A DNA stretch of 63,142 bases, the filler included, from Hausera hauseri (lineage: Eukaryota), in NCBI GenBank assembly GCA_046269625.1. It is 10 parts of 10 records of this genome, joined end to end, with 100 filler letters (N's around TTAATTAATTAA, not from the genome) between each part and the next. Parts side by side here need not be neighbours in the genome. Positions count along the whole stretch, not along the records: positions 20,891 to 25,302 come from JBJURY010594445.1; 9 more parts are not named here. One strand, given 5' to 3'. The notes under the pieces are model-generated. The model ran no database searches. It was not told where the DNA came from and saw only the letters and a list, made by a program, of their open reading frames with translations. Every line of letters begins with the position of its first letter. Position 1 is the first letter of the stretch. A program made the translations under genes and the position numbers. Positions 1,577 to 37,070 of the stretch are shown here, piece by piece.

Positions 1577-2120
1577 AGTGATGTTCATAATGACATTCAA
1601 TCCCATTTTATTTTGGTACTATCCTATTCTCGTACCGACGAATTAAGTCGTTGGTTCATTAACCAAAATGTTGTTTTGTTTGAATACTGTTTTTCTGCAC
1701 ACCAAAAAGATGTCTTTAAACAGTTCCTCAGAGAACAAAATTTATATGGAAATTGTCAACGATCCTGTTGTCAAAATGAAACATTCAAATATAACATATA
1801 TTTTACATGGAGTTAAATTTCAAGCAGTTTCCGATTTGATTAAATCATGCAAAGTCTGTTCGAATAAAGGACTTGCATATATTTCCGAACATGAACTCGC
1901 CAATTATGTAGCAACGAATTCTGCAAACACGTCTCAATTTCTTAATTTTCGCCTGAATTGGTCACAAGCCGAAGAAGTCAGTCGTTTGAATTTTTCGTTC
2001 ACTATTGACAAGAATCACTTTGGTAGGGATTATTCCCAGACGGAAAAAACTAAAAAAATTGCCGCTAATCATACAACTTCATTGAGTAAAACATCTTTTC
2101 CGCCATGCATGCAGCTATTG
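1577..2120 (+). pseudogene. PRIM2: DNA primase large subunit (p58) fragment, copy 1
   Basis: DIQSHFILVLSYSRTDELSRWFINQNVVLFEYCFS, VKFQAVSDLIKSCKVCSNKGLAYI and SLSKTSFPPCMQLL resemble PRIM2 [39 protein letters not shown] and LSTKSFPPCMRQL. Frameshifted; ends at the first Fe-S-domain cysteine. Confidence 0.85.
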
Positions 2121-2286
2121 TTACATCAACAAAAACTGCTGTCAACCAGTGAGGTTATCAGTATTAGACTGCAGAATGGAGCGAGTAAGAAGATCGATTA
2201 CAGACATCCGTCAAAAAGCGCCAAGCAGATTAGATTCGATGAAAACCAGACGACATATAACGAATTGGTGGGCTTGTTCAAAGAGT
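1577..2286 (+). repeat. ~710-bp dispersed direct repeat (partner 11493-12211)
   Basis: Colinear, near-identical sequence from agtgatgttcataatgacattcaatcc to ttcaaagagt at both sites. Upstream flanks differ, and the second copy runs into the contig end. Confidence 0.95.
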
Positions 2287-11492: not shown

Positions 11493-12045
11493 AGTGATGT
11501 TCATAATGACATTCAATCCAATTTTATTTTGTTCCTATCCTATTCTCGTACCGATGAATTAAGTCGTTGGTTCATTTACTAAAAAGTTGTTTCGTTTGAA
11601 TATTGCTTTTCTACACACCAAAAAGTTGTCTTTAAACAGTTCCTCAGAGATAACAAAATTGACATGAAAATTGTCAGCGATCCTGTTGTCAAAACTAAAC
11701 ATTCAAATATAACCAATGTGTTACACAGAGTTAAATTTCAAGCAGTTACCGATTTGACTAAATCATGCAAAGTCTATTCGAATAAAGGATTTGCATATAT
11801 TACCGAAGATGAACTCGTCCATTATGTAGCAACGGAATTCCGCAAACACATGTCTCACAATTTCTTAATTTTGTGCCTGAATTGGTCACAAGCCGAAGAA
11901 GTCAGTCGTTTGAATTTTTTGTCCACTATTGACAAGACGCACTTTGGTAAGGATTATTCCCAGACGAAAAAAACTAAAAAAAATTACCGCTAATCATATA
12001 CCTTCATTGAGTAAAACTTCTTTTCCGCGATGGATGCAGCTGTTG
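11493..12045 (+). pseudogene. PRIM2: DNA primase large subunit fragment, copy 2
   Basis: Paralogue of 1577-2120 (DIQSNFILFLSYSRTDELSRWF; SLSKTSFPRWMQLL) with independent stops and frameshifts. Confidence 0.85.
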
Positions 12046-12211
12046 TTATATCAACAAAAACTGCTGTCAACCAGTGAGGTTATCAGTATTAGACTGCAGA
12101 GTGGAGTGAGTAAGAAGATCGATTACAGACGTCTGTCAAAAGGTGCCAAGCAGACTAGATTCGATGAAAATCAGACTACATATAACGAACTGGCGGGCTT
12201 ATTCAAAGAGT

Positions 12212-12311: not shown

Positions 12312-12917
12312 CTGTATCACATTCTTTATTGTAGTAGTCACATTCAAGAAATGTCATCATTTTAACCGATTATAATTCGAATAGAACATCATTCTCTCAA
12401 TTCGATTTGATATCATTCGATGGCTACTACATTGCCCAAAATTTCGTCCTTTATATTGTATGATTCTCCTTTACAATATCCTGTTTTATCAATAGCTCCA
12501 GCGGCAAAAATTCTTTTGTTAATGACTTTTCCTTTTTGAGCCTTGAACCGAATGCTTCCAATATTGAATTGTTTAGTTACAAATGCTTCTACACACCCAT
12601 TTGCTTATCGGAAGTCGTTCGAAAGGAGTGGTTAGTTCTACTATAGCCGAATTTCTGTACCAATAACCACAAATAAAGTTAAAGTAATTCTTTCGCACGA
12701 AACATTCACTTGTTTTTGCAAATTCAATTCTTGTTAAACCTAATATTCTTTATTGGATACTGTAGTTAGTGATGCTTGATTGGCATGTGGACATTTTCTA
12801 GATCTAACAGAGAATATATTGGACCTTCTTTCGCTTGTCTGCAATCATAGGCAGTGATTGAAAAGGTTCTTGCCACGAGGTTAAATAGTACAAATGTGTA
12901 TAACTTTAATTAACCAT
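12312..12917 (-). pseudogene. N-terminal part of a class III (chuvirus/gB-type) fusion glycoprotein, env-like
   Basis: Manual minus-strand translation across frameshifts gives a hydrophobic leader LYTFVLFNLVARTFS, then ITAYDC..IYSLLDLE-C, ECFVRKNYFNFICG, IFAAGAIDKTGYCKGESY..GNVVAIE and ECDYYNKECD. The cysteine pattern fits chuvirus-like G (GYDC..SLLDV.EC; LAG.ID.DG.C.G..Y). Not present in the ORF track. Confidence 0.75.
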
Positions 12918-13179
12918 GATAAGTCGAAATCTGGCCGTTGATTTCGTTGTCATTCTTGCTGGTGAGATGGAGTATTTTCTGTTGTCTCTGAGTAAAAGGT
13001 ACCGATTTTTGTATTGTTGCCTGAATCAGAATACTAATCCATCCACCTCTACACTACGCATCCTTAGACATTAACCTTCAATGCTCTTGTGGCAATTTCT
13101 GTTTCTTTCTCTCCTCTTGGTTTGGATTTACACCATTCATTACCGTTATTTTATATGAGATAGGACATAGCTGTTACGA

Positions 13180-15345
13180 TTTTACTTCTTGTTATACCAG
13201 TTTCCACCATTCTCGACAGCATATCTCTTCTGTATTTTGTTTATTCTCTCGTCTGTAGGAATATCGGCAAATTGCTCACTCATTTTTGCTATTTCATTCC
13301 TGATGATTTGTATTATTGAGTCTTGTATTTGTAAATTGGTGTTGAACTCAACGAATGCATTGTGCATCCTTGCTAACAAGGTCTGCAATAATGTTGCTAA
13401 TGGTTCATTACCTGCATCATGTTCATCACCCGTTGTTAGTAATTTTCGATCAACGTCGTCATCTCTCGCTTTTCTACCTTTTAATTGATAAAGTTTCGTA
13501 GTTCCTTAGGGTCTACCACGATTCCTTTTATCTGTCTGAATTTGCTCTGATATTGAAATATTCGTTTCAGCTGTCTGCTGATCTTCATAATGTAGTTCAG
13601 CTTCTTGTATCTCCTTTTGTTTAACTTCAGTAATGATTTCATCAATTTTTTATGCTCGGATTGTCTAAAATCATTGCATACTGGGTTATATCTACTTTCC
13701 CACATACCTACTTCATATACGGTTTCGTAATCTAATAGGGTTCGCCCGTAGAGACGTAATTCCAATTCCTCGAGGTTGGATTACTTCATTGGTTTTGTTT
13801 CAAATCAACTATCGTGTCCAACGACTTCATTCTTATGACTTGAAAATCTTGATTATATTGTTGGAGAGTAACTATTACTTTGGAGTTTTCTCTGACCGTT
13901 CTTACTCTATATGCATACCGATAGATTATGTCTTACGACATTCTGATATGGATTGTGGCCAGCAGCATATACTAACATGTTTATTAAATTAGCAAACTGC
14001 TTATGGCTAATCGTAGGTGACAATAACATCGAAAGATCTTATCTGAACTGAGTGCCATTAATTAATTCTTGATTGGCATAGCTCAATACTTTTCGGACTT
14101 TTTCCATGCCATCTTGGTCTAAATGTATAGATGAAGTTTCCACTTGTGATGGTTCCTTCACTTTCTTCTTATCCTTTTTATTTTCTCGCTTGGCTCACTT
14201 ATCACTTCCAGAAGGTGAGTCTGATTCGGGCGTTCTTAAATCCTCTTGTATAAAAGGTTTATCTTTTGTTTTGACCTTTCTCTTCTCAGTATCTGATTCT
14301 GCTGCAGGACTCTTTTTAGGTCTGCCTACTGGGGCAATAATCGAACTATCGTTGTTCATTTTGTGCCTTTTCTCACAAACTTGTTGCTCTTTTAACTTCA
14401 GATATAGCTGCTTTAATTCAACCACATTGTTTTCGTTATGTCCTACCATATTGGTTTTGCACTATTTCGATTTAGCTCTAATCTTTTGTTGGAGCTTTTC
14501 TACTGTATCTTCGTGTTCATTGTGTCATGTACAGTACCAAGTATATCAGCTTTGTTTTTCTTTGATTGTCCTTGCTTAGCGCATGAGCGAGCGATATGTC
14601 CATAATTTTCACAAGTAAAATATAATGGCTGTCCATCTTGATTAACCAGTGGCTTCCTCACTGCAGACTTTGAGGTTGACTTTACCCAGTAACATTCTTT
14701 TGCTCTTGCTCTGGTCTTCCGAAATTTTTGGAACGGCTTTTGAAAATTTTTCTTTTGCTGAAAATTTCTCGGTTTCTTATTATCTTAGGGATGCTTCTTT
14801 ACATTCTCCAATCGTTCATAATTGACTTCAATTTTCCTAGCTTTACTGACATCTTCTTTATAAGTGTCAGGATCAGCAACGATAATATAGTTTTGGATTT
14901 CTCTGTTTATTCCGTAACAGAACTGAGCTAGGAGAGCATCTTATATCTTCATCTACGTTCGCTCTCAGCCAAATTCTGCAGGGCACATGTATACTCTTGC
15001 ACGGTTTCGTCTTTCCTTTGACGTCTCCTGTTGAATTTTCCAATTCGACCTTTTTCTGACGGGTCTACTGTGAGCCTTTCCTCCAGGGACTCCTTAAGAC
15101 TATACCAATTGGATTTATTCTCATCTTAAACTTGTGTGTAAGCAATAAGTGATATACGTTTGAGATGAAGTGGAAGTCGTTTTATCCTAAGCTCATCTAT
15201 CCATCCGAAGCTCTCTGAATACATCAAGTAATGCATTAGGAACTCACCAGTCCTGATCCGGTTCTCCTTGAAACTTATCCATGGGCAAGACTATCGTGCC
15301 ACTTAGGTTGCTACCTAAGCTGGCTCCTAATCCGGAACTAGACCT
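13180..15345 (-). pseudogene. Decayed Gag polyprotein with CCHC knuckle and ubiquitin-like domain (paralogue of 35014-37070)
   Basis: SSGLGASLGSNLS start; SEKGRIG; degenerate knuckle ..CENYGHIARSC; ELKQLYLKLKEQQVCEKR..PVGRPKK; UBL VTLQQYNQDF..MKSLDTI..ELRLYGRTLLDYETVYEVG (~13675-13885). Confidence 0.88.
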
Positions 15346-15478
15346 CTGTAGATTTCCTTCTATTTTGGGGATTTTCTGTATCTGATTCGGATAAACTTCT
15401 ATTGAATCTGTTTTTTCCGTTATGATAGTAGCGTGTGCTTTACGCTTATTTCGTCAGTTGTACAACGCCAGCGTGCCT

Positions 15479-15495
15479 CCTCACTCGGGGCACTA
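15479..15495 (-). promoter_or_regulatory. Primer-binding site, elongator tRNA-Met type (one mismatch)
   Basis: The minus strand reads ..ttaaCA c TAGTGCCCCGAGTGAGG, upstream of gag. It matches 34867-34883 apart from one base. Confidence 0.8.
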
Positions 15496-18217
15496 GTGTT
15501 AAGTTTTGAAGTTAGAGACGAGTTTGCGTCTCGCGACCTCAAACTTAAACTTTATTTATTCGCTTAAATAACAACCTGTGGGGTTACTAGGCTGTTTATT
15601 TAGGTTACATGACCTTAATGTGTAAGTTTGGCAGAGTCAATTTGTAGCCATCGTCCTTTCTTTTTCATTTTTCTCGTCAGAGTGATAGTTTCAGCGTCGA
15701 GAATTGATTCTGTGGAGCTGGCCATAGGTAATGATTTCCAATCAATATAACAGTCTTTTAATAGCTACTTAACGAAGAGGGTATCTGAATTGGTGTCGAT
15801 GTTTGATTAATGGGTATCTGTATAGGCACCTGAACTTGATCCTTACACGAAGAGACCGTGAAGTCTGGTATCGTGGTTTGTCTGTCGGATATAAGTATTG
15901 ATGTGTCCATATGTTCGATTGAATATTTAGAATTTCCAGTTTTAACGTTAAAGTAATTCAATAAGAAACGTGCAATTTATATTTGATTAATTGAAAATCT
16001 AGAAATTTAAATTTTCGAATAAATTATAATAATAAAGATCTATTTAGTATGACATATTTTGTTGAAAGTGATAAATTGAGAATTTAATGATTGTGAATTT
16101 AAAATATTGTATTTGCGATGATAAATTGGTTGAACAATTCATATTCTCAACATTACGAATTATTTTTTTGTTTTAATATTTCGGGCAGGGAATATATGGT
16201 TGTATACACTTTGCTGGTGAACTGGTGAATAATTATACGGAACATAAATGGATAAAATATATGTAGTATTGNNNNNNNNNNNNNNNNNNNNNNNNNNNNN
16301 NNNNNNNNNNNNNNNTTAATTAATTAANNNNNNNNNNNNNNNNNNNNNNNNNNNNNNNNNNNNNNNNNNNNTGCACATTCATATACTGCACCATGTTTGT
16401 GTTCGAATGCACCCGGTCACATGTCCTAATCATCAATATTGGAAATATTGGAAATCCGATATTATTGATTTTTCTCACTTCCACATGTGCAGTGCCCCTG
16501 CACTGTCACCAATCGATATGCACTGATGTGCACTATCGATTAGCACTTTGCCCCGGTCGATTCGATCAATACTGCACTGTGCAGCGATCGATTTGTGAAA
16601 TCTGCAAAAACGTGCCTAGCAACGGTGCCTAACCACACGGTTGCCTAGCACACTACCGATCGACAGTGCACCATATGCACCATCGATTGGCACATGTGCA
16701 AAATTGATTTATCGATTACCCCCTGGATGGGGGTGAGAGACTTCCCATTTCTCCCTATTCCCATTTAATTAATTACTGAAGGTTAATAGGTTTAGAAAGC
16801 ATTGAATTACAAGATGAGCAATTATTTTATAATTACAAGTTTTATAGTAGACTGGCTCCTAAATGCTATATCATACAGAAAACGGTAATAGATTATATTC
16901 AAATAGAATCATATTTAAAAAGTATAATAGAATTATTGATAGCTGTGCAGGTTGATTAACCTTTTGTGCTGTCCACTGTTTGTTAATTTTATATGATGGG
17001 AGTTAGATCTGTGATACCACACGAAACACAGGTTGGACTTAAATACTGTTGATATGTTATCAAATCATAACAAATACCATTATTTAGTAACTCGTATAAT
17101 ACTAACGTATCTTTATTTTTTCTTTTGTTTTTATAAGAGAAAATCTCATGTAATACGAATCGTATTAAATTTTATTTCACTTTTCAATTTTATTAAAATA
17201 TTGAATATGATTGTTTTTCTGTAAACCAGTGAAACGCTATTTTTCTCGTCGTGTTTTATTTCACTGATATTCAAATATCTTTAACCGAACATTGTCCTAG
17301 TTATTACCCAGTTTTCCATTTCATACGATTTCCGATTGGACAGCTCTGAGAAATATTGAGCTTGTTATGTTAATTTTGTCCTGTATTATAGTTAAGCCAA
17401 ACATTTTCTAATTTCGACATTTTGACATACAATCATTTGATTCTTTATTGAAAACTGACATAAATATTCCCAAATAACATTGTAGACATTATAATTTGTT
17501 ACGTGGAGAAAGAATAACATCGATAAGAAAGTGTCATCTAGATATTTCTGCTGCTCAGTAATCGTTCGTGTACTTCGAATAAATGTTAAAATAATCGATT
17601 ATCTAATCAACAATTACTCGAGAGCATAAAATTCAAAATTGGATTGATAGAATAAGAATTGAAAAGTAGCTAACGAAATCATTTGAACTCAGAAAAGTTG
17701 AATTTCGACTTGAATAAAAACTTTATGCTTTATGTTTTTAAAATAAAATCTTCCAAATGCCACCATATACACCTGCAACATGAAATAGTTTATTTAAGAG
17801 CAATATTAAACCATTTAGATTTGTGATTTACATCTATCCCTTTTAAATAAAAAATGATTACTATTTATGTAACTACTTCAGCAAATTCAAATGATATATT
17901 GATTGGAAATTCATTTAAAATTTGTATTTGAGGGAATGATGAGATAATTTAGCCAACGGATAAATTATGATTATTTGGCATTTGGTGATAAATATTTCTG
18001 TATAGTAATCAGACGTATTCCTTAAATTATTTTTATTTCATGTCACTTTGATAATATTTATATAGGAAAAAATTTCTTCCGTTTAAATTAGACGAGAGAG
18101 AATAATGATGCTTCAATAATTGAACTTATTTAAAGATGTTATTTATTAAAGTTATTTATAGATATTAAATGTTATGGTTCTGATTATACGAACATGTTTA
18201 ATGTTGATTTATTTCAG

Positions 18218-20790: not shown

Positions 20791-20947
20791 NNNNNNNNNN
20801 NNNNNNNNNNNNNNNNNNNNNNNNNNNNNNNNNNTTAATTAATTAANNNNNNNNNNNNNNNNNNNNNNNNNNNNNNNNNNNNNNNNNNNNATTTAGTTTC
20901 AACATGAGGTGGAAATTCAGCTTACTTGTAAGATTTTTCTTCTATAA

Positions 20948-21790
20948 TTACGGAGATACCTTGTAAGTATTTCTTAAGGTAGTATAGGCATGAAGTTTTA
21001 CCGGTATCGGGGCATTATTTACTATCCTGAAAGGTACGCGGCCTGTACGTATTCTTGTCAGTATATTGCTGAGTATTATGTTTAGATTCAATGTTTCCTT
21101 AGGTTCAAAATATACCTGTTGATCGTCGTTTTGCTGAATTTGCGCATAGATTATCATCTCTGTTCTTGGTGGAATGTTTTCATTCACTGAAATCCACAAT
21201 TCTCCAAATTTCCTATCTTTAGCCCTTTTTATGCCTTTATTTGTTCTGATTTCAATTCATTTCCCCGTTTGCAGATCGATTGCTATATTTGGTAGTCTTT
21301 TTAGTAGAACTACGTCGTCGGTCAATAGTTCCATAACCGCAAACTTGTAGTGGGAAAACTTTCAGACTATTTGAACTTCCGGGTTTTATTTAAACACTGA
21401 TTTTGACACTTGGCCAAATGCTCCTGTGCTTCTGGGATCTCCTGTTGACGGCGAATATAACTTGTTTCTTAATGTTTTAGGAATCGAATCATTTTTAACG
21501 TAAGATATTTCGGAACCTGCATCGATTAAGGCATATACCTCCCAATCATCCATGATGATTTTGGCGAAAGGCCTACCTTCTATTACTGTTCCAAAATAAT
21601 TTGATGTGATCATTTGGCGCTTTATTGTCGATATTTCATGTCCATTAATTCGGATTTCCGGAGGGGATACTATATTTTCCGATAATCCTCTCAATTCGCC
21701 GTTTGGATGTAGTTTTTTATTTTCGTTGCTTACTTCTTCCGTCTCATGGCTGACGATCAGTTGTTCTCGATTGTTAGTGTGCGATTTCAT
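20948..21790 (-). pseudogene. Retroelement aspartic protease and post-protease spacer (start of pol)
   Basis: GRPFAKIIMDDWEVYALIDAGSEISYV (D[T/S]G-type site reading DAG at ~21512-21523), then STGAFGQ and the Gypsy-type spacer IPPRTEMII..FEP..GRVPFRIVN..PVKL. Confidence 0.8.
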
Positions 21791-21954
21791 GTTTCAAAAA
21801 GTTTCTATTCTTCTGTCTTCCCAGACATGGACCCGGTCCGGTCTCTATATTTCGAGGTTCCTTGGAGAGTACAAAATTCTGGGATCATTTCTAGACGGTT
21901 GGTAGCACATTTTTTGTAAAATTCCATATCGTTTCACTCCTTTATAGGGGTCTT

Positions 21955-23580
21955 CTATATTAAATGTTCTTTTATAGATTTTGTCTGATAATAGCTCGTT
22001 GATTGCTTATTGCAGTCTTCGTAAATAGGAGCGATAGGGGGTAGCATTGGCAATGGTGCTTTAATGACAGAGTATGTTTTATGTCTGTTTGTTCCTGGAA
22101 GTACTTTTCCTGCCTTAGGCTCGTTATCATCTGAATTATTTCTTCGCGTATTAGGCTTTGTAAATTTCCGCTTGTACAAAAACATAAGCCTTCCCTTTCA
22201 TTTACAATTATACTATCCGACAAGGCGTTTTACGTCCGATTTCCATCTATTTTCTTTGCATGCCCGGTCAATGTAAATATTTCATGGCCATTTATTACTG
22301 CTTGGATGACTGACTTAATAATTTGTATCCAAAAAATATATTGCTAAGAATCTGGATGGGGCTTGGCCAAAAATCAAAAATCTTCCTCAAATTTTGTAGA
22401 GTATTTCTGTGGTGACTCGCTGATAATGATTTATGCCAAGCACGGATTGCCATTTAGTCTGATATCGAGTATTGTCTACTACGAAGGCCAAGGCTCGGTT
22501 TAATTCATGTGTCCCTTGTCGCGGAAAAGCGAAAAATTGTCTGAAGGCTTCAATTTCCTTAGGTCTATATATGCCTTTTGACGAGGTGTCTTGAAATTTG
22601 TCGTCTGTAATTCATTTTGCAAGATTTGTTCCTGTTAAGTTATTTGGTGCGGCAGCAATACCTCCATTTGGCAAACTAACCCAATCCGTTGCACTACGTC
22701 TAAACATGAGTTCTCCTAAGCTTGCTTTGCAATATTGAAGGATTGTTGGTTCAGTTGCATTGTCTAATAGCACTCTAGTGAGTGGAATGGCTAACCTTGG
22801 AATATTCTGGTAATTAACGGGAAGTTCCTGCATGTAGCGTTTTTCTTCAACTTTGATTGGTACATTTCTTTTTTCACAATCGTAAGTCAATAGTAATTTA
22901 CCGGTAACTCAACCAAAAATTCCTCCTCTCATAGAAATTATTGGGGATTCCAACTCGGGATTAGCGTAAATAAGAGCCATTTTTGTCCTCATGATTTCCA
23001 TATCCAATTTACAATCATTTGTTATCATTTTATGATATAACTCGGTTATTCCGACTTGCCCTTTGTAATAGAAGTAATTGTCTCTGTTTTTCAGATAATC
23101 CTCAATTCTGGTATCCTGCGTTTCTAGTTTGTAAATCTTTGCATTTATTTCTGTTTCTGCGACGAAAATGCCTCATTGTTAGTAGCGAACATCACTACTT
23201 CACAACGAGAAATCATTTTTTTCTTCATAAATTTTAGTCCATGCTGATCAGAGATTAATATAGTGGGCGTAGGATGTTCGGATACGTCTTCGCGTGTCCT
23301 TGAGTTGGTATCAGATTTATGCACATATCGCTTTCCGGTAGTTTCATTAAACTTTAATTCCTTAATTTTGATAAAATTACAGTTTGTTCCAGAAGGAGGT
23401 TCCCAGATTATAACAGAACTTCTAAAAGCACAGGTTCCGTCTTGTGAATGACATTTTTGATTCTCGGTATATAGTTTGGTGACACCATGGAACATTACTT
23501 TCTGTGCTCGCATTTATGATTCATAGAAATCCACGACCACTACGTTTGCTTGTAATCCTTTTCCGGTGTCGTATTCCGCT
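21955..23580 (-). pseudogene. Central and C-terminal part of a class III (chuvirus/gB-type) glycoprotein, env-like
   Basis: NVVVVDFY; CHSQDGTC..SVIIWEPP..C; C..EIMRTKMALIYANPE; LLLTYDC..VPIK..ELPVNYQN..PLTRVL..C; KGIYRPKEIEAFRQFFAFP (compare the chuvirus-G GIY..DL..LR..IMFP motif); hydrophobic segment at ~22310-22380. Several stops. Confidence 0.78.
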
Positions 23581-25402
23581 CCGCTACAATGTCCGTTTAG
23601 AAGTCTGCGCCTTAATGCAGGCCTTACCTCTGGCCCACCGCATAATAGCGATAAAACAATAAACTAAAAAGGACATAAGACAATTAAGAGAAAAAACGGA
23701 GTAATGGTCACAACGTTTATTGTTATCACAATCGCTGTTGGCCGAGTTCCTCGAGGCGTACGAGGCGTCCGTGGAGGATAATGCCCGGCCATTTCGGAAA
23801 CCGCGGCGTACACAGGTCGGAACATCGTCCGAATTGGAATCGGTTGACGTTGGTTCAAGTCTTATCGGCTCCAGCCGGCGTCGACGGCGCGGTACGGGAA
23901 CTTTGTCCGGGCTGGAACTTACTGTCTTAGCCTGCGGTTTGTCAGCGGTTTGACAATCAGGAATCAACTGGCCCTCCGTTGGAGCCAGCGATTTGTAGAG
24001 ATGGTCGGCGGCCACCATCAGTCTTAAGAAGACCGGCAAGAGAACCGACGAGTCGAAGAGACGTCGATTTTCGCCGTCCTCGTAGAACCGATGGAGCGTT
24101 GCCTCCGGTAGAGCGTAACGGTCGTCTCTCTCCAGCCTGACTAAATGCCGCATGAAACGGTTCCGTTGGAGCAGCTCCAGTACCGTCAGAAAGTTCGAGC
24201 AAGACCGGGACGGGACTCGCTTGTCGGTGTTGCGATGTCGTTTGCCGCGTGGAACGGTGTTCCGCCGGGTTGTGTGCTGCCGCTCTTCTTCTCGACCTTA
24301 TTCTGGTGAGGCGACACGGCTATCGGTGTTGTTTTCCGCTTCGGCGTGTACTGGTTGGAGTACCTTGGGAATACGGTACCTCGGTGTTGATATGGTATTC
24401 CTTTAGCCAAAGGTGGCGTTGGATGGCCTTTGTGTCTTCCCCGACGATTGCTTCGCCGGGTTTTGCTGTTCAAGTCGCGTGCGTTCCCGTTTCAGCGCTG
24501 TTTTTCTGTTTTGCCGTCTGGTCCTTTCCCCAATTTTTCAGTGTTTCGGGCATAGTAGTTTTCTTTTTCTTTTTGAATAATTTTCTGTTTCTTAAAACTG
24601 TGGATTCAAACAAATGGATTTGAATCCGCAGATTTCGATTGTTAATTTTGTATTATTATTATTACAAGTGCTGATCACTTCAGCACTCGTAATCCCTGTT
24701 TAATTTTTTTGTTTCCTATTTTTGTGCTTATTTGGGATGAATTCGTGATTTTACATTGACATTTTCAGGTTACCCGATTTTCGTTATTCATTTGAAATGT
24801 TATTTGCTTGTTTAATTAAAGGTTTAATTTTTCGTCAGCTTCTTTTGTGATATTTTTGATCAACATTCATTAGGTAATTAATGGGATATTGAAACAGTGA
24901 AAATGGAGTGATATTATTGTTTTGTAAATTTTATTGGGTTTGTGGATTTTAAATTTTATTTTAAATTTTGTTGTTAGTGTCGGAATTTATTTAACATGTT
25001 TGGTATGACTTATATTTGTTAATGCTTGAATTTTGTAAGGAGAAGTTTTACAGTGGGTTATGCATGTTTAACCTTCCGACCACTACCCTGTATGCCCTAA
25101 TTATCTTCCCTGGTTGCATTTTAATTCTNNNNNNNNNNNNNNNNNNNNNNNNNNNNNNNNNNNNNNNNNNNNNNNNNNNNNNNNNNNNNNNNNNNNNNNN
25201 NNNNNNNNNNNNNNNNNNNNNNNNNNNNNNNNNNNNNNNNNNNNNNNNNNNNNNNNNNNNNNNNNNNNNNNNNNNNNNNNNNNNNNNACAACACCACCAA
25301 CANNNNNNNNNNNNNNNNNNNNNNNNNNNNNNNNNNNNNNNNNNNNTTAATTAATTAANNNNNNNNNNNNNNNNNNNNNNNNNNNNNNNNNNNNNNNNNN
25401 NN

Positions 25403-27848: not shown

Positions 27849-30700
27849 ATGGCATCATCTGAATTTGTCGACAGTGTCATGCAGACATTGAGAGGATTCT
27901 GTCTGAACAACAACACCAATGCAGCAATTGACGGAGTGGACTCATCCAACAACAAATCTTCAGTGTTGTCACCCGACGAGGATAATATTGAAACCGCTGT
28001 AAGATACTTGTGGACCAGATTTGACATCAAAATTTAATTTAGGAAAAATTACGTGCATTCAATTTATTGCCGACATTGGCGACCACTCTCTGTCCAGAAA
28101 ATACGCGGAATAAATTGATTCCAATTTTGGAATGTTAGTTTTTGGCGAAATATTGTTGAGGAATTATTGGTAAATTGCAGCACTGATCACAACTGCAGTA
28201 GAAAATGGCGACGACGAAGCACTGATGATAATTGCACAGAAATTGGGTGATTTCGTCTCTCTTGTCGGTGGAGGAGTTCATGCAAATTGTTTATTGGTAC
28301 TTGATTATGGTTTCTGTTTTGTGAACATTTCCATGTTTAGCCTTTGTTGGCAAGGATTGTCTGTTGTGTGGAGGAAATTGTTGTCGTCCAGGCAGCATGT
28401 GATTCTCTGGTTAGGATTATTCCCAAATTGGATGGGGCTATTATTGACACGAATTGTCTGCAGTTGGTGAGAAATGTTTTTGCTGGTGAGTTGAGTTTGT
28501 CTATTGCTGTTTGCGTGTTTATTCACCTTCCTACCGTCTATGACATTTATATTAGACGATCTCTACTGTGCATCAAGGAAGGCCGGAGTCCGACTTATTC
28601 CGGTTCTTTATAAACGGGCAAATGCTGAATCACAGGCTGAACTGAAGAAGTATGAAGGGAAATATTTGATTTTATTATTTATGTACACAACAGTCGTTTG
28701 TTACATCTGTGTATGGCCGATGATGAAATTCCACTTATACGTGCAGCAGCAGTTGAACAATTAGTGGAATTGAATCAGGCAGCTGGGGGACCAGAAATGA
28801 AGGGGGAATTAGTGAAGACATTGACGAGGTGAATAGAGAATAACTGTGAAAATAAAATTGTCATATTTCATTTTGTAGTTTGGTGTCGGATAATCAGCGA
28901 ATTGTGAGGGCAGCTGTTGTCAAACCGACTCTGGAATTGGCACGGAATATTGATGCCGGTGAATTTGATACACTGTTAATGCCATTGCTGGAGAAATTGA
29001 GTGAGGACACAAACAGAGACACGAGACGGGCGTTGGCAACGGTTATTAGCGAATTCCAACGTGTGGCTCATCGATACGGGAAATCATTGCATACGTTATT
29101 GATCAAATTGATGGAGGATAATGAAATAGACTCACGTAAAATTGTTGCCGGACAGTTGAAAGGTACGTCAATTGATTGATTGTTGTCATTAATGATCGGT
29201 TGTAGAATTTTGTTCGGTTTGTTCAACACAAATAGTCACGGATTCGCTGTTGCCGAAAATTCGCGAACATCTCAATTTGGAAAGGGAAGATCGGGTTAAG
29301 GCAGAATTAGTCAAATCTGTCGTCATGATGATACCCAGCTTCAAACGCGAGGATTCATTGCCACTCGTGCAGCATGTTCTGTCTTTCTTGAATGACTCCA
29401 GTTCACAGGTATATGACATTATTGTTTATTTGATAGTCTTGGGGGGTTGGTGAAGAAGTTGATTAATGGAGGGTGGGTTGGTAAAGAAGTTGATTAATGG
29501 AGGGTGGGTTGGTGAAGAAGTTGATTAATGGAGGGTGGTTGGTGAAGAAGTTGATTAATGGAGGGTGGGTTGGTGAAGAAGTTGATTAATGGAGGGTGGG
29601 TTGGTGAAGAAGTTGATTAATGGAGGGTGGAGTTAGTAAATAAGTTTGTTATGCAGTAAAATTATGGTTATCATCAGCGAATGTGAGAAAACGACAGGTA
29701 ATGGGATAAACGTCATCAGTATTTTGAGTTTTATATGATACTAAGATTGTCATGACTTCGTTTACATCGTTCTGTTTCGTATCGTAACGACTGAATATGT
29801 AGACTAAACAATACGTATTCGAACATTTCCAAGGTCTCATTGGACTTGTATCACCAAGCGAACTCCAATTGACCATTATACCAAGTCTCGTAAAATTATT
29901 TTCGGACAAAAACTGGCGTATTCGATCTGGTGTGGTAAACAGTATTATGTTGATCGTACCAGTTGTCGTAAGTTTCCATGACAAATGTAACTAGTTGACT
30001 GTCTGTGGTGACATAGGATGAACCCTGTTGTCGAGATTTGTTGATGCCGACTGTCCTCACTTGGATACGTGACCCTGTTTGGGACATTCGTCAGGGTTCA
30101 TGTGAAATTATCGGTGCCATCACAGCTCGTTTCCCATCGCTGTTAGCGGATAAATTGGCCAAATCGCCGATACTCAAAGAGCTGCATGAAGATACGAACT
30201 ACCATTTCAGACAGTGCTGGTGTTTTCTCATTGAAGCCACATGCAAAGCCCACCAGAAACGTAACGGCACTGGATCAGCCGACCTGTTGTGTGCATTCAT
30301 GTCAGCCAATGCCAATGACGTGTTGATGACGATGATTGAGAAAGATCCTGTACCGAACGTCCAGTTGACTGCCGTCAGGAGTGTCAATGAATTGTCGGAC
30401 TTTTTGGACAAGAAGTAAATTTCAATGTCTGGCATTTTGAGTGTCGTGTTCGTTTTCAGTTTTGTCACGAAACAGTTGCAGCCAGCCTTGAAGAAATTGG
30501 CTAGTTCGTCAATTGATATTGATGTTCGGTATTTCTCAGACATAGCTGTGAAATGTAAGTAATGGTGATTGTGGTGATGGATGTGTGTACAATGTCCGGT
30601 TGGTCCGTCTAAATTATGCATTGTTGTAGGGGACGCGATGGAGCGGATGAGTGGGGATGTGGGGCGTTTTAACAAAATGAGAACTTGTACAAACAAATGA
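27849..30700 (+). CDS. PPP2R1A: PP2A scaffold (A/PR65) subunit-like HEAT-repeat protein, multi-exon, apparently complete
   Basis: TRNKLIPIL; DDEALMIIAQKLGDFVSLVGG..ANCLLPLL..VEEIVV; DKNWRIR; TWIRDPVWDIRQ; DTNYHFR; DPVPNVQL; DIDVRYFS are colinear with PR65. Introns are mostly ~45-60 bp. TGA stop ends at 30700. Confidence 0.88.
29444..29630. repeat. Intronic 31-bp minisatellite, six copies
   Basis: Unit gggttggtgaagaagttgattaatggagggt repeated six times; one copy is 30 bp and one has a substitution. Confidence 0.95.
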
Positions 30701-32440: not shown

Positions 32441-32953
32441 GTGGTTCAGGTTCGATTATTTATTATATGATGTGCATTTTACTGATATCTGTGTATTTTC
32501 AGCCAACTTTTATTCTGTTATAAAACGTAAAATATACATTCCTTTTTGGGGTGCCAGTAAGCATTAATAGATTTTACATTATTTCTTATGGAAATAGCTG
32601 ATGTCCTTCACGAACAACAAACTTCTTCGTTTATGAAAAGAAGCCTTTAAGAATGAATCAAGTTCGTGAACCGAGTCAGTAACACATGCACCGAGAATGT
32701 CATCCACATACGACATCGTTCTTCCAGCTCCCAGAATNNNNNNNNNNNNNNNNNNNNNNNNNNNNNNNNNNNNNNNNNNNNTTAATTAATTAANNNNNNN
32801 NNNNNNNNNNNNNNNNNNNNNNNNNNNNNNNNNNNNNTAAAGGGACATTTGGCATTCCAACGAATTGGTCTCCTCTTTAAACTCCAGACAAGATCAACAA
32901 ACCTTTCGGACTTGATAAATATATAAACAAAAACGCTTGCCATCTATATCTCG

Positions 32954-34108
32954 GTGGCAAAAGAAAGAGTCCAGCTGAAAAGCAAATCACTTTCTACCGG
33001 AATCACGGATACAATGGATATTACAGAAGCTACAACAATTCGTCTAGATCCTCGTCTATATACAAATGTCGATGTAACCCTTCGGATATATGATACACCC
33101 TGCCAAATAATATATGTAGAGGTAATAAAAAAGGAAAATATACCTCGAATAACTTACGAAATTGAAAAATATTTTACACCAAGGCCCAAAGAAACCGAAG
33201 TGGAAAAAGGCCTATCCTTTTTAAGGAGACCAATCCAATTTAAGTCAGAAATCGTAATTATGGCAATCAATTCGGTATATTTAATGACCCCTATTAGGAG
33301 CAAAGAAATGACATTAGTCGAAATAACCCTGATAGATATAGAGGGTAATATTATAAAGGATGAAATCCTAACCCCAAGAGAGAAAATAAACAACTACAAT
33401 ATCCATATTACTGGTCTAAAAGAAGCTGATATTGTGGGACAAAAAAATTCATATGAAGAAGAACCTCATTTACTGAAAGCAATATTTGGGAAAGTAATAG
33501 TTGGCATCGATGTATATCATATGCTTATAACCACTCTCAAATACGATTATAATTATTTTCTTGGCATCAGAGACCTATTGCATCATAAAGAAATTAATCC
33601 CCAATTGGAATATACTGCAAAACAGCTTCTCATGAAATATAATGATGGTGCATATCCTCAAAAGACAAAAGATAAGGCCTTAACCATTCTGAAGATTTAC
33701 AACACTATTTCAGAATATAAAAATGAACACTTTGAAAATGGTACCACGTCCATGGAAATCCAAAAACCAGAATTAACCAAACAAGCGCTTATCCAGACAG
33801 TGCCTATGCAGGCGGTATCCGCATGTTTAAAGACCCAACAAATATCATTCCAGTCGACAATTGATCAATTAATGCCAAATCGGTTAATGCCTAATGATCA
33901 ACCGATGTCAGCCTCGACTTCAACTATGAAAGATTGTTACATAGATCTAAAACCCTTAACACTAGCCAATTCTACGGAATCTATTTTTGTCGACCTCACA
34001 AAATCATGGAAAAAAAAGGAAAATCCCAAAATCAGAAACGATCACTTTAAAAAGGACGATGGCTTCACATCAAATCTGTCGATTATCAAGATTCAAATGG
34101 GACAATAG
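32954..34108 (+). CDS. Retroelement 3' accessory ORF with an inactive REXO4/ISG20-like DEDDh exonuclease fold
   Basis: IVIMAINSV..LVEITLIDIEGNIIKDEILTPREKINNYNIHITGL..FGKVIVGIDV..IRDL..TAKQLL..KALTILKIY parallels REX4 (VAMDCEMV..ARVSIVN..GN..D..VKP...V.DYRT..SGI..GRILVGH..RDT..L.K.LL..DARA.M.LY), but the catalytic acids are missing. The ORF ends 35 nt before a PPT. Confidence 0.72.
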   Translation: MAKERVQLKSKSLSTGITDTMDITEATTIRLDPRLYTNVDVTLRIYDTPCQIIYVEVIKKENIPRITYEIEKYFTPRPKETEVEKGLSFLRRPIQFKSEIVIMAINSVYLMTPIRSKEMTLVEITLIDIEGNIIKDEILTPREKINNYNIHITGLKEADIVGQKNSYEEEPHLLKAIFGKVIVGIDVYHMLITTLKYDYNYFLGIRDLLHHKEINPQLEYTAKQLLMKYNDGAYPQKTKDKALTILKIYNTISEYKNEHFENGTTSMEIQKPELTKQALIQTVPMQAVSACLKTQQISFQSTIDQLMPNRLMPNDQPMSASTSTMKDCYIDLKPLTLANSTESIFVDLTKSWKKKENPKIRNDHFKKDDGFTSNLSIIKIQMGQ

Positions 34109-34120
34109 AAGCCTACCCTC

Positions 34121-34154
34121 TGATGCTGAGGACAGCATCATCTAAGGAGGGAGG
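34121..34154 (+). promoter_or_regulatory. Hairpin plus polypurine tract
   Basis: TGATGCTG-AGGA-CAGCATCA perfect 8-bp stem, then AAGGAGGGAGG directly followed by TGT. Confidence 0.7.
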
Positions 34155-34865
34155 TGTCCAACACAATCAGTACGAGCTGAAATAAAGTAAATAATCGAGA
34201 AAAATAAACAGAATTGAATTACCTTACAATCACTGATCGATTAACAAATTGATTTTTGTTTTTTTTTGACTCTCCATAAATTGAAACTTGTTATTTCTCC
34301 TTCTTTGTAAATATAGTTTTATTTATTCGGTACAAATTGGTGATTGTAAAATTAGTACATATACTGATATGATTTATGTCAACCTACCACTACATAGGAT
34401 TAGAACTTTTGAACTGTTCGTACCGAAACTTTTATGTCGTACATAGATAATTGTGAGTAGCTTTATTTTTTTTGTTTCTTATCGTACTTTGATTTATACA
34501 TTTATTACCAATTAAAAGATTTATATTCGATTAATTTTCTTTTTAACAAATTTAAATAGATCATAATACAGTATTGAATAGGACAAATAGAATTCAACTT
34601 AAGGGCCCTGTTTGGTATACCGTCCCTTCAGGACGGTTGTCTAAAATCTACTAATTAAGGGGGAGTAACGTCGGTGTACCTCCTTACGAAGCTCACTCAC
34701 TACGACCAATTAAATAAAGTAGTATATAGATGTTGGCAAACCCACAGGTTGCTGATTACTGTTAAAGTAAGTTAAGCTTGAGACAAAGAGAGAACTCAAG
34801 CTTCTGAGTAAAGAGCATAAGTTTAAGGTCGTAAGACCAATAAACCTTAGACTATAAACTTATCA
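34155..34865 (+). repeat. Putative LTR between PPT and PBS (left boundary uncertain: 34155 or ~34664)
   Basis: TG follows the PPT at 34155 and CA at 34864-34865 precedes the PBS. The 3' part (cccacaggttg..aaactta[t/a]cact) is shared with 15495-15585 on the minus strand. Confidence 0.55.
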
Positions 34866-34866
34866 C

Positions 34867-34883
34867 TGGTGCCCCGAGTGAGG
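34867..34883 (+). promoter_or_regulatory. Primer-binding site complementary to the elongator tRNA-Met 3' end
   Basis: TGGTGCCCCGAGTGAGG is the reverse complement of CCTCACTCGGGGCACCA, the 3' end of invertebrate-type elongator tRNA-Met. It lies ~130 nt upstream of the gag ATG. Confidence 0.85.
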
Positions 34884-35013
34884 AGGCACACTGGCGTATA
34901 ACACGCGGTAGAGAGTTAACGCTACTAATACCATTTCAAGTACTGATTCGGCAAGGAGTAGTTCCAAATTAGACGAAGATTTCAATCCTCATATTACAAA
35001 TCAGAATTCCGAT

Positions 35014-37070
35014 ATGTCCTCAGGACTTGGACCAAGCTTAGGTAGTAACCTAAATAGCACAATCGTGCTATCTATGGACAAGTACGAAGCCAAACCGGAT
35101 CAAGATTATAGTGAGTTCATCATGCAAAATGAGATGTACTCAGAAAGTTTTAACTGGACAGATGAGCTCAGGATGAAGCGGCTCCCTCTTCACCTCAAGG
35201 GTATAGCACTTAGTGCTTATACACAAATCAAAGATGACGAAGACAAGGCTGATTGGGCTAGCCTTAAAGACGCCCTGGAAGAAAGACTCTTAGTAGACCC
35301 ATCAGAAAAAGGTCGAATCGGAGAGTTCAACAGGCAACGTCAAAGAAAAGGCGAAACCGTGCAAGAGTATGCATGTGCCCTTCAGAAGTTGGCTCAGAGA
35401 GCCTATGTAAATGATGATAAAAGGGAAGATGCCCTCCTGGCTCAGTTTTGTTACGGAGTTAACAAAGAAATCCAGAATTACATAATCATCGCCGATCCGA
35501 GTTCATATAAAGAAACCGTTAGCAAGGCTAAAAAAATTGAAATCAATTATGAAATACTCAAAAACATAAAGAAACATCTTAAAAGTGATGATAAAAAACC
35601 GAAAAATTTCCAACAAAAGAAAAATTTTCCTAAACCGTTTTATAAAACTCAAAATCAAACGGAACAACAGCAGAAGAAGTTTACATGGCAATAAGATCAA
35701 TCTCAAAAATCTGCGATGAGGAAACTAACAATTAATCAGAATGGACAACCATTATGCTTTGCATGTCAAAAATATGGGCATATGGCTCGTACCTGCCCTA
35801 ATCAAGGACAGTCAAGTCAAAAGAAAAAGAATGTCGATATAGTAGGTAATATATCTGACACGGATAATGAACACGAAACCACAGATACAGAACCAGAAGA
35901 AACGATTGAAAAGCTACAACAAAAGATCAGATCCAAATTAAAAGAAAGTAAAACCAATACGATAGAAGAGGAAGATAAGATAGCTGAATTAAAACAGCTA
36001 TACCTTGAATTAAAAGAGCAGCAAATCTGTGAGAGAAGACAGAAAATGAACGATGAAAGTTCAATTATTGCTCCTATTGGTAGACCCAAAAAGACTCCTG
36101 CATCAGGATCGGATGTTGAAAAGAAAAGGGTCAGAAAAAAAGATAAACCTTTGATACAGGAAGAAGAACTGAAGACTCCGGAACTTAACTTACCTTCTGG
36201 AAGTGAAAGTGAAAAAAGTGAATTTAGTGAAGAAAATAAACCCAAGGAGAAGATAAAGAGAATAAGGAAAAAGAAAATTAAGGAAAAATCCACAAGTTAC
36301 GAGTCTTCCGTTGATTTAGACCAGGATGGCCTAGAAATAGTTCGGAAAATATCCAGCTATGCCAACCAAGAACTAATCGATGGTAATCGATTTAGACAGG
36401 ATTTGTCTATGTTATTATTGCCAACAATTAGCCACCAACAATTTGCCAATTTATTGGATCTGTTATTAATATAATCGGCTGGTGCAAGTCCATACCAGAA
36501 TGTTGTACGATATATAATTTATCGGTACGCTAACAGAGTAAGGGCCATTGGAGAAAATCCTGAAGTAACGGTTACTCTCCAACAATATAATCAAGACTTC
36601 CATTTTCTTAGAATGAAATCGTCGGATACAATAACTATATTAAAACATAAAATTAACGAAATAAGCCAGCTTCAAGGAGAATTAGAGTTACGCTTCTATG
36701 GGCGATCATTAATGGACTATGAAACTCTATATGAGGTAGGTATTTGGAAAAATCGGTATAATCCCGTGTGTATTACTTATAGACAGTTTGAGCAAGAGAT
36801 AATCGATGAAATTATTACTGATGTTAGGCGAAAAGCAATACAAGAGGCCGAACATCAATATCAGGTGCAACCAGTAGAAGCCGGAGAGAATATACCTATC
36901 TCAGAACAAATACAAACGGATAAAAGAAATCGTGGAAGACCAAAAGGAACGACGAAACTCTATCAGTTGAAAGGCAGAAAAGCTAGAGATGATGAAGTTG
37001 TTCGAAGATTGTTAACAACGGAAGATGAATATGATGTAGATAATGTATCATTGGCAACATTACTACAAAC
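35014..37070 (+). pseudogene. Gag polyprotein: capsid-like domain, CCHC knuckle, charged linker, ubiquitin-like domain, AT-hook-like motifs
   Basis: ORFs 35014, 35716 and 36613 share one frame, split by two TAA codons. Motifs: RQRKGETVQEYA..QFCYGV (Gag), CFACQKYGHMARTC, PIGRPKK, UBL at 36559-36783 (VTVTLQ..RMKSSDTITILKHKI..LRFYGRSLMDYETLYEVGI) and KRNRGRPKG. Confidence 0.9.

What the first reader, a model, noticed from the sequence alone, without database searches (positions are those of the whole stretch)
20948..23580. Class III env running into the aspartic protease (env-pol junction)
Seen: on the minus strand, the env ectodomain, GIY..FP motif, TM and tail are followed within ~0.8 kb by a retropepsin and Gypsy spacer, with no LTR, PBS or CCHC gag between. 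Its first segment (EYDTGKGLQANVVVVDFY) aligns with the env at 12312-12917 (SYNIKDEILGNVVAIE.Y) but is divergent, so this is an independent subfamily. Inference: a second, complementary line of support for env lying 5' of pol.
Basis: partly seen in the sequence, partly recalled or inferred. Interest (0 to 1): 0.85.

Follow-up and report, generated by a model that had tools for sequence, protein, structure and literature searches.

The report
Decayed envelope-before-pol gypsy retroelement
This is a broken copy of a Ty3/gypsy-type retroelement whose virus-like fusion (envelope) gene lies directly in front of its protease gene, a real and inherited gene order that has already been published for nematodes, flatworms and bryozoans, so it is likely an ordinary new example and not a new kind of element.

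Summary
On the minus strand of a 4.2 kb contig (20891-25128), a chuvirus/herpes-gB-like (class III) env remnant (Pfam PF24664, 59 bits) is followed, about 290 codons after its membrane anchor, by a retropepsin and gypsy spacer. No gag, LTR or PBS was found between them. The order is inherited, not a nesting accident. Of the 18 best env relatives, 9 carry a protease behind env in one predicted protein and none has pol in front. The window's protease-spacer matches those same proteins (54 bits, against 8 for another gypsy protease in the window). Corrections: the copy is dead (stops, frameshifts), and the 'first segment' is not the start of env, which is split by a 1459 bp insertion (23598-25056). 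The order is already known: GAG-ENV-POL errantiviruses with gB-type env in Nematoda, Bryozoa and Platyhelminthes (PMC13524379, which credits Sacco 2022). The scan has noted a gB-type-env gypsy element on other DNA (e1-9887218). RT, LTRs and host phylum could not be tested. The only fresh lead lies in the relatives: 19 of 28 env-pol polyproteins carry two or more protease domains.

The parts
25057..25128 (-). Short piece of env domain I, cut by the contig end; the rest of env's 5' part and gag lie outside the assembled sequence
   Evidence: Ranks 3 of 44,215 23-residue windows against the relatives' profile at the expected register (ranks 5 and outside the top 200 at the two neighbouring registers); contigs of other copies join 23594 to 25057 (3 contigs, 64 letters on the shorter side)
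23598..25056 (.). 1459 bp insertion into env, flanked by a 3-letter repeat; AT-rich at one end, 53-59% GC in the middle; identity unknown
   Evidence: joints that skip it; ends, GC; no Pfam, Rfam, Atlas or gag hit
23178..23597 (-). Env ectodomain, end of domain I and domain II (one stop at 23516; frameshift near 23175)
   Evidence: 68 bits with env profile; phmmer E down to 2e-13 against relatives; stops
22390..23172 (-). Env ectodomain, long central helix, beta-rich crown and membrane-proximal helices, with the GIY..FP motif near 22575-22522 (stops at 22911, 22614)
   Evidence: PF24664 59.1 bits; model pLDDT 77.8; best Foldseek matches are chuvirus-like glycoproteins, E 1.7e-8, with herpes gB among the 25 matches at E<=0.001
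22280..22389 (-). Degenerate membrane anchor of env (stop at 22389, frameshift near 22340); boundaries approximate
   Evidence: tblastn of relatives runs to 22330; motif compared
21600..22279 (-). Env tail and linker to the protease; no gag, LTR or PBS found; several stops, frames change
21260..21599 (-). Retropepsin-type aspartic protease remnant (catalytic Asp codon at 21523, degenerate motif; stops at 21388, 21364); boundaries approximate
20951..21259 (-). Protease-RT spacer (FEP..P.R..N motif shared with relatives); the contig ends at 20891 before RT
   Evidence: Invariant columns in alignment A1; 54-bit profile hit

Best explanation
This is a decayed copy of a multicopy retroelement family with a class III (chuvirus/herpes-gB-like) envelope gene directly in front of its protease gene, most likely a Ty3/gypsy element of the known gag-env-pol type. 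Shown here: env remnant, then protease and spacer, no gag between them, and the same order in the closest relatives, where RT, RNase H and integrase follow and a zinc-knuckle gag precedes env. Inferred for intact members: one long Gag-Env-Pro-Pol protein is made. A hydrophobic stretch in front of the ectodomain would thread Env into the ER, and the anchor behind it would return the chain to the cytosol. There the protease would release RT and integrase, and Env trimers would let particles fuse with other cells. This copy can do none of that: env is split by an insertion, and both genes carry stops and frameshifts.
For: Env family. Order in relatives: 9 of the 18 hits at E<=1e-10 have a protease behind env, 8 are env-only pieces, 1 is a repeat protein dropped as spurious, 0 have pol in front. 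Over all 116 proteins scored: 28 env-then-pol, 1 pol-then-env, 87 env only (the query included). Of the 28, 17 have a CCHC knuckle before env, none has one between env and protease, and 19 reach RT. Pfam shows the gypsy order PR-RT-RNaseH-H2C2-integrase. The window's protease-spacer hits these proteins just behind their env (E 8e-9 to 2e-4 in a 105-protein library) and scores 54 bits against 7.7 for another gypsy protease in the window and 0 for reversed controls. In the env tree the window's copy sits in a 26-row clade (SH-aLRT 98) with 19 env-then-pol rows and 7 env-only rows; the one pol-then-env protein falls elsewhere. Anchor-to-protease spacing of about 289 codons lies within the relatives' range of 131-669 for the last protease before RT. 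Hydrophobic stretches flank the ectodomain in relatives such as P0005, P0008 and P0104. Multicopy: 7307 contigs of run X1 lay on the stretch, most 80-95% alike, and all 30 bins have cover. The same order is published.
Against: RT, integrase, gag and LTRs are not on this contig, so gypsy membership rests on relatives at 24-30% identity. No listed contig of run X1 spans anchor to protease; the one joint across the linker (21655-22028) has only 27 letters on its short side and is weak. This copy does carry one nested insertion, so nesting happens here. The tree is the quick one and the window's branch is long (1.99). 13 of the 28 env-then-pol proteins came from a search limited to 1570-4997 aa, which favours polyproteins. 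The DNA of the relatives could not be fetched, so their single-ORF state is inferred from the predicted proteins. PDB matches to gB are weak (best E 0.017 by sequence; 0.078 by Foldseek).
Confidence: 0.9

Rival explanations
1. The junction is an accident of this copy: an env remnant and the pol of an unrelated gypsy element were brought together by nesting, recombination or mis-assembly.
For: This copy has one proven nested insertion; the contig is short and comes from a fragmented, repeat-rich assembly; no listed contig bridges the whole junction.
Against: The protease-spacer is of the lineage that carries this env, in the same order, strand and spacing; there is no LTR or repeat at the junction.
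Confidence: 0.04
2. The element is of the env-gag-pol type reported for oribatid mites, with a short gag between env and pol that has decayed beyond recognition.
For: That order exists (PMC13524379 methods); the roughly 700 bp linker has no assigned domain.
Against: No gag-profile or CCHC signal on the contig. In 17 of 28 relatives the knuckle lies before env and in none between env and protease. The sister family in the window has gag before env (gag at 15293-14574, env from 12909).
Confidence: 0.03
3. Gag-env-pol order, but with env and pol as separate reading frames in this family (pol made by frameshift, read-through or its own start), or as a non-autonomous element that ends soon after the protease.
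For: Env and protease are in different frames in this copy. Some relatives end after env or after the proteases (P0007, P0004, P0012). The eLife paper treats ENV and POL as ORFs up to 2 kb apart.
Against: The copy is decayed, so its frames say little; 19 relatives run from env into RT in one predicted protein. This rival changes only the expression step, not the gene order.
Confidence: 0.25

Closest known systems
GAG-ENV-POL 'ancient errantiviruses' with HSV/gB-type ENV of Nematoda, Bryozoa and Platyhelminthes (Chary and Hayashi, eLife 2026, PMC13524379)
   Same: Ty3/gypsy-type element, gB-type class III env, env placed before pol, multicopy; ectodomain flanked by hydrophobic segments in the relatives.
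   Different: This copy is decayed and truncated. The host phylum is not established, so it may or may not be one of the three. The parts of the paper I read (abstract, sections 5 and 6 first parts, section 14, searched passages; 'protease' occurs once) do not mention the repeated protease domains seen in the relatives here.
Non-canonical nematode endogenous retroviruses (Sacco et al. 2022, J Gen Virol 103:1739, PMID 35550022)
   Same: Env before pol (as cited in PMC13524379). Recalled, not read: a continuous gag-env-pro-pol ORF with an env resembling RNA-virus glycoproteins, which matches the single predicted polyproteins found here.
   Different: The paper is not held, so sequence membership was not tested. 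Recalled as restricted to chromadorean nematodes; the host here is unknown.
Chuvirus/Monjiviricetes glycoproteins (PF24664) and their BEL/Pao captures in mosquitoes (Dezordi et al. 2020, PMC7642597; seen as search listing only)
   Same: Same env family and predicted fold.
   Different: Those are RNA-virus genes or lie in BEL/Pao elements. Here the partner is a gypsy-type protease, and relatives show gypsy Pfam domains and no BEL/Pao families.

Membership tests
GAG-ENV-POL gB-type errantivirus | gB-type (class III) env | tested here: met
   PF24664 59.1 bits; chuvirus-like G and herpes gB among 25 fold matches at E<=0.001 in BFVD; 29 of 30 PDB sequence hits are herpes gB but weak, E>=0.017
GAG-ENV-POL gB-type errantivirus | env directly 5' of pol, no gag between | tested here: met
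   same order in relatives
GAG-ENV-POL gB-type errantivirus | gag 5' of env | tested here: inconclusive
   The contig ends inside env; true for 17 of 28 relatives and for the sister family at 12312-16271
GAG-ENV-POL gB-type errantivirus | Ty3/gypsy RT-RNaseH-integrase | tested here: inconclusive
   The contig ends before RT; relatives with the same protease-spacer have gypsy domain order
GAG-ENV-POL gB-type errantivirus | LTRs and tRNA primer-binding site at the ends | not testable with these tools
   The element ends lie off the contig; no genome held; DNA of relatives not found
GAG-ENV-POL gB-type errantivirus | intact ORFs | tested here: not met
   Stops, frameshifts and a 1459 bp insertion in this copy; this bears on the copy, not on the family
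Nematode NERV (Sacco 2022; features recalled) | one continuous gag-env-pro-pol ORF | tested here: inconclusive
   Broken in this copy; seen as single predicted proteins in relatives, e.g. P0008, P0113-P0116, P0118-P0121
Nematode NERV (Sacco 2022; features recalled) | nematode host and RT in the NERV clade | not tested
   No RT on the contig, no named NERV sequence among the hits, host not determined
BEL/Pao with chuvirus glycoprotein | BEL/Pao-type protease and pol, env after pol | tested here: not met
   Env lies before the protease; relatives hit RVP/gag-asp protease, RT_RNaseH_2 and Integrase_H2C2 and no BEL/Pao family

The most novel reading that the evidence does not exclude
The copy belongs to an undescribed branch of gag-env-pol elements that makes a giant single polyprotein (2700-4800 aa) with an internal class III fusogen and two to six aspartic protease domains, some behind the integrase, in a host phylum not yet known to carry env-before-pol elements.
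Probability: 0.2. Interest if true: 0.5.

Novelty: new member of a known kind. Interest (0 to 1): 0.2.

Why it matters
As it stands it adds one decayed example to a published class. Its use is as a check: it shows by protein lineage that the env-protease junction is inherited, and it points to a set of unnamed, apparently intact polyproteins in public assemblies. These could test how a membrane-anchored fusogen is made inside a Gag-Pol polyprotein and why many members carry extra proteases. If the host proved to lie outside nematodes, flatworms and bryozoans, the range of the gag-env-pol order would widen.

Tried and rejected
No whole genome is held, so the contig could not be extended. Word-index searches with the broken env and protease pieces against longer proteins found nothing; the full HMMER scan did. 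Pattern scans of genome, viral and metagenome contigs found no relative (the alignment query was too divergent). Cluster look-ups gave no informative names; the one organism label, a Flavobacteriaceae MAG for P0008, is probably mis-binned host DNA (inference). No RNA holder was listed, which says nothing on expression. Summed contig depth in run X1 differs along the stretch (high over env, lowest bin 21743-21884), but the tool states that such depth cannot rank parts, so I draw nothing from it. The wide structural search returned generic coiled coils (best Z 6.4; Thogoto and Bourbon virus class III glycoproteins at Z 6.0 and 5.8 within the noise). Weak NEDD8 matches to the spacer (E>=0.57) were rejected as chance. 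A search for a second protease on this contig found only one. The insertion could not be identified. P0016 and P0055 (repeat proteins) were left out; the tree used 102 rows with at least 150 matched residues and the careful search did not finish. Sacco 2022 is not held. Searches for repeated proteases in such elements: one library search (no paper with 'two proteases') and a term count in PMC13524379; this is thin and no proof that it is unpublished.

Full report
Setting. The window is not one stretch of genome but about ten contigs joined by N-spacers with a fixed 12-letter linker. The finding lies on the contig 20891-25128, so nothing left of 20891 is its neighbour. No whole genome is held. 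Other contigs hold gypsy pol remnants and pieces of eukaryotic genes such as a PP2A scaffold-like HEAT gene and a HECT domain, so the source is a eukaryote, probably an invertebrate (inference). I did not determine the phylum.

The env. The stretch 22390-23172 on the minus strand, read with X at its two stops, passes Pfam PF24664 (Monjiviricetes fusion glycoprotein) at 59.1 bits, cut-off 27. A scan of 1.84 billion representatives gave 99 hits at E<=0.001 and 18 at E<=1e-10, at 24-36% identity for those 18. A profile from 12 of the long relatives covers 23597-22335 in three pieces (68, 136 and 50 bits), and also finds the env at 12897-12394; reversed controls gave nothing at 5 bits or more. A model of the C-terminal half (pLDDT 77.8) has a long helix, a beta-rich region and terminal helices. 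Its best matches among viral models are chuvirus-like glycoproteins (E 1.7e-8), with herpes gB among the 25 matches at E<=0.001. Against solved structures the matches are mostly herpes gB but weak, and the wide search was uninformative. The class III assignment is therefore sound at family level.

A correction. In run X1, three contigs join 23594 directly to 25057 (64 letters on the short side), and several more skip nearly the same stretch. The 24 codons at 25057-25128 resemble the relatives' residues just before the conserved Cys that the segment at 23597 begins with. They rank 3 of 44,215 windows at the expected register, behind the true counterpart in the other env and one chance hit; alone this is modest, and the joints carry the weight. 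So a 1459 bp insertion (23598-25056, flanked by a 3-letter repeat) splits env in this copy, and the 5' part of env and gag lie beyond the contig. The insertion has no Pfam, Rfam, Atlas or gag match. Env also has stops at 23516, 22911, 22614 and 22389 and frameshifts near 23175 and 22340; the protease frame has stops at 21388, 21364 and 21259. The copy is dead.

The protease. It has no Pfam hit by itself. The Atlas returns retropepsin clusters at 0.90-0.93, which is suggestive only. The stronger test is lineage. The protease-spacer piece hits the env relatives themselves, just behind their env: P0105, P0104, P0005, P0106, P0013 and P0008, E 8e-9 to 2e-4 in a library of 105 proteins chosen only for env likeness. 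A profile from five of them scores 54 bits at 21571-20989, against 7.7 and 2.1 bits for two other gypsy proteases in the window and 0 for reversed controls. Between anchor and protease there is no CCHC knuckle, no gag-profile hit, no long repeat and no clear PBS or polypurine tract.

Is the junction inherited? Of the 18 best env hits, 9 have a protease behind env in the same predicted protein (P0004, 5, 6, 8, 9, 11, 12, 13, 18; for P0011 the call rests on a motif and on my own profile, which included it, not on Pfam). Eight are env-only pieces, one is a repeat protein that I dropped, and none has pol in front. With cluster members and 13 more proteins from a length-limited search, 116 proteins were scored: 28 env-then-pol, 1 pol-then-env, 87 env only. 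Of the 28, 17 have a CCHC knuckle before env, none has one between env and protease, and 19 reach RT. Pfam shows the gypsy order protease, RT, RNase H, H2C2, integrase. In a quick env tree the window's copy falls in a 26-row clade (SH-aLRT 98) with 19 env-then-pol rows; the one pol-then-env protein is elsewhere. The window's branch is long, so its exact place is unsure. The spacing from anchor to catalytic Asp, about 289 codons, is within the relatives' range. Inside the host the family is multicopy: 7307 contigs of run X1 lay on the stretch, most 80-95% alike, and all 30 bins have cover. No listed piece spans the junction, and the one joint across the linker is weak.

The second env in the window (12312-12917) shares 16 of 50 aligned residues and no DNA match with this one. 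Its contig has a gag upstream that matches the relatives' gag (78 and 40 bits).

How it likely works. Shown for relatives: hydrophobic stretches before and after the ectodomain, and env and pol in one predicted protein. That these are true single frames is inferred: I could not fetch the DNA, but P0008 was annotated in a prokaryotic MAG, and cluster 3 shows one protein whole on one contig and in pieces on another. Inferred from known polyprotein topology: the first stretch acts as an internal signal, the second as a stop-transfer anchor, Gag and Pol stay in the cytosol, and the protease frees the enzymes. Fusion activity and spread between cells are untested.

What is known. Chary and Hayashi (PMC13524379; I read the abstract, the first parts of sections 5 and 6, section 14, the file list, searched passages and some rows of supplementary file 1) state that errantiviruses of Nematoda, Bryozoa and Platyhelminthes carry only HSV/gB-type ENV and are arranged GAG-ENV-POL, and they credit Sacco et al. 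2022 for the flipped order in nematodes. Their table lists 10 bryozoan rows (the first 20 matches) and 9 flatworm rows, one with 215 copies. I could not read Sacco 2022; its continuous gag-env-pro-pol ORF is recalled.

Verdict. Real, correctly read, and a new decayed member of a known kind; interest 0.2. The one thing I did not find in print is in the relatives, not in this copy: 19 of the 28 env-then-pol proteins have two or more protease domains, 8 of them one behind RT, and P0106 has six catalytic motifs plus ankyrin and zinc-finger hits. My literature check on this was thin.

Noticed in passing
relatives P0004-P0123 (not in the window): 19 of 28 env-then-pol polyproteins carry 2 or more retropepsin domains, 8 with one behind RT; P0106 (4844 aa) has six catalytic motifs, ankyrin repeats and a C2H2 finger. 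The window's contig shows only one protease.
   Followed up: partly
window 32927-34108 (+): A 393 aa frame upstream of a gag has a weak match to the ISG20 3'-5' exonuclease (E 4e-4, residues 126-208); a related frame lies upstream of the gag on the 12312-16271 contig. Likely a captured exonuclease-like ORF in the sister family.
   Followed up: partly
window 36475-37068 (+): Weak ubiquitin-family hit (E 2e-4, below the curated cut-off) in the region between gag and env of the sister family; also matched by relative P0115.
   Followed up: no
window 12312-16271 (-) and 32838-37070 (+): Two copies (about 72% DNA identity over 2.2 kb) of a sister family with gag, a long linker and, on the first contig, the start of a gB-type env.
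   Followed up: partly
window 23598-25056: Unidentified, apparently repeated 1459 bp insertion in env with a GC-rich core and a 237-codon open frame; no family found.
   Followed up: partly
window 1577-2286 and 11493-12211: A 719 bp direct repeat at 90% identity, both copies coding a DNA primase large-subunit-like segment (PF04104), on a contig that also holds gypsy pol remnants and a HECT domain.
   Followed up: no
window 28100-30420 (+): Exons of a divergent PP2A scaffold-like HEAT-repeat gene with apparently short introns; could help place the host.
   Followed up: no
window 47636-54361: About 6.5 kb of extremely T-rich simple repeat (AT skew about -0.9).
   Followed up: no
protein P0008 (HBK71150.1): A 2627 aa gag-env-pol polyprotein filed under a Flavobacteriaceae MAG; likely mis-binned animal DNA.
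   Followed up: no
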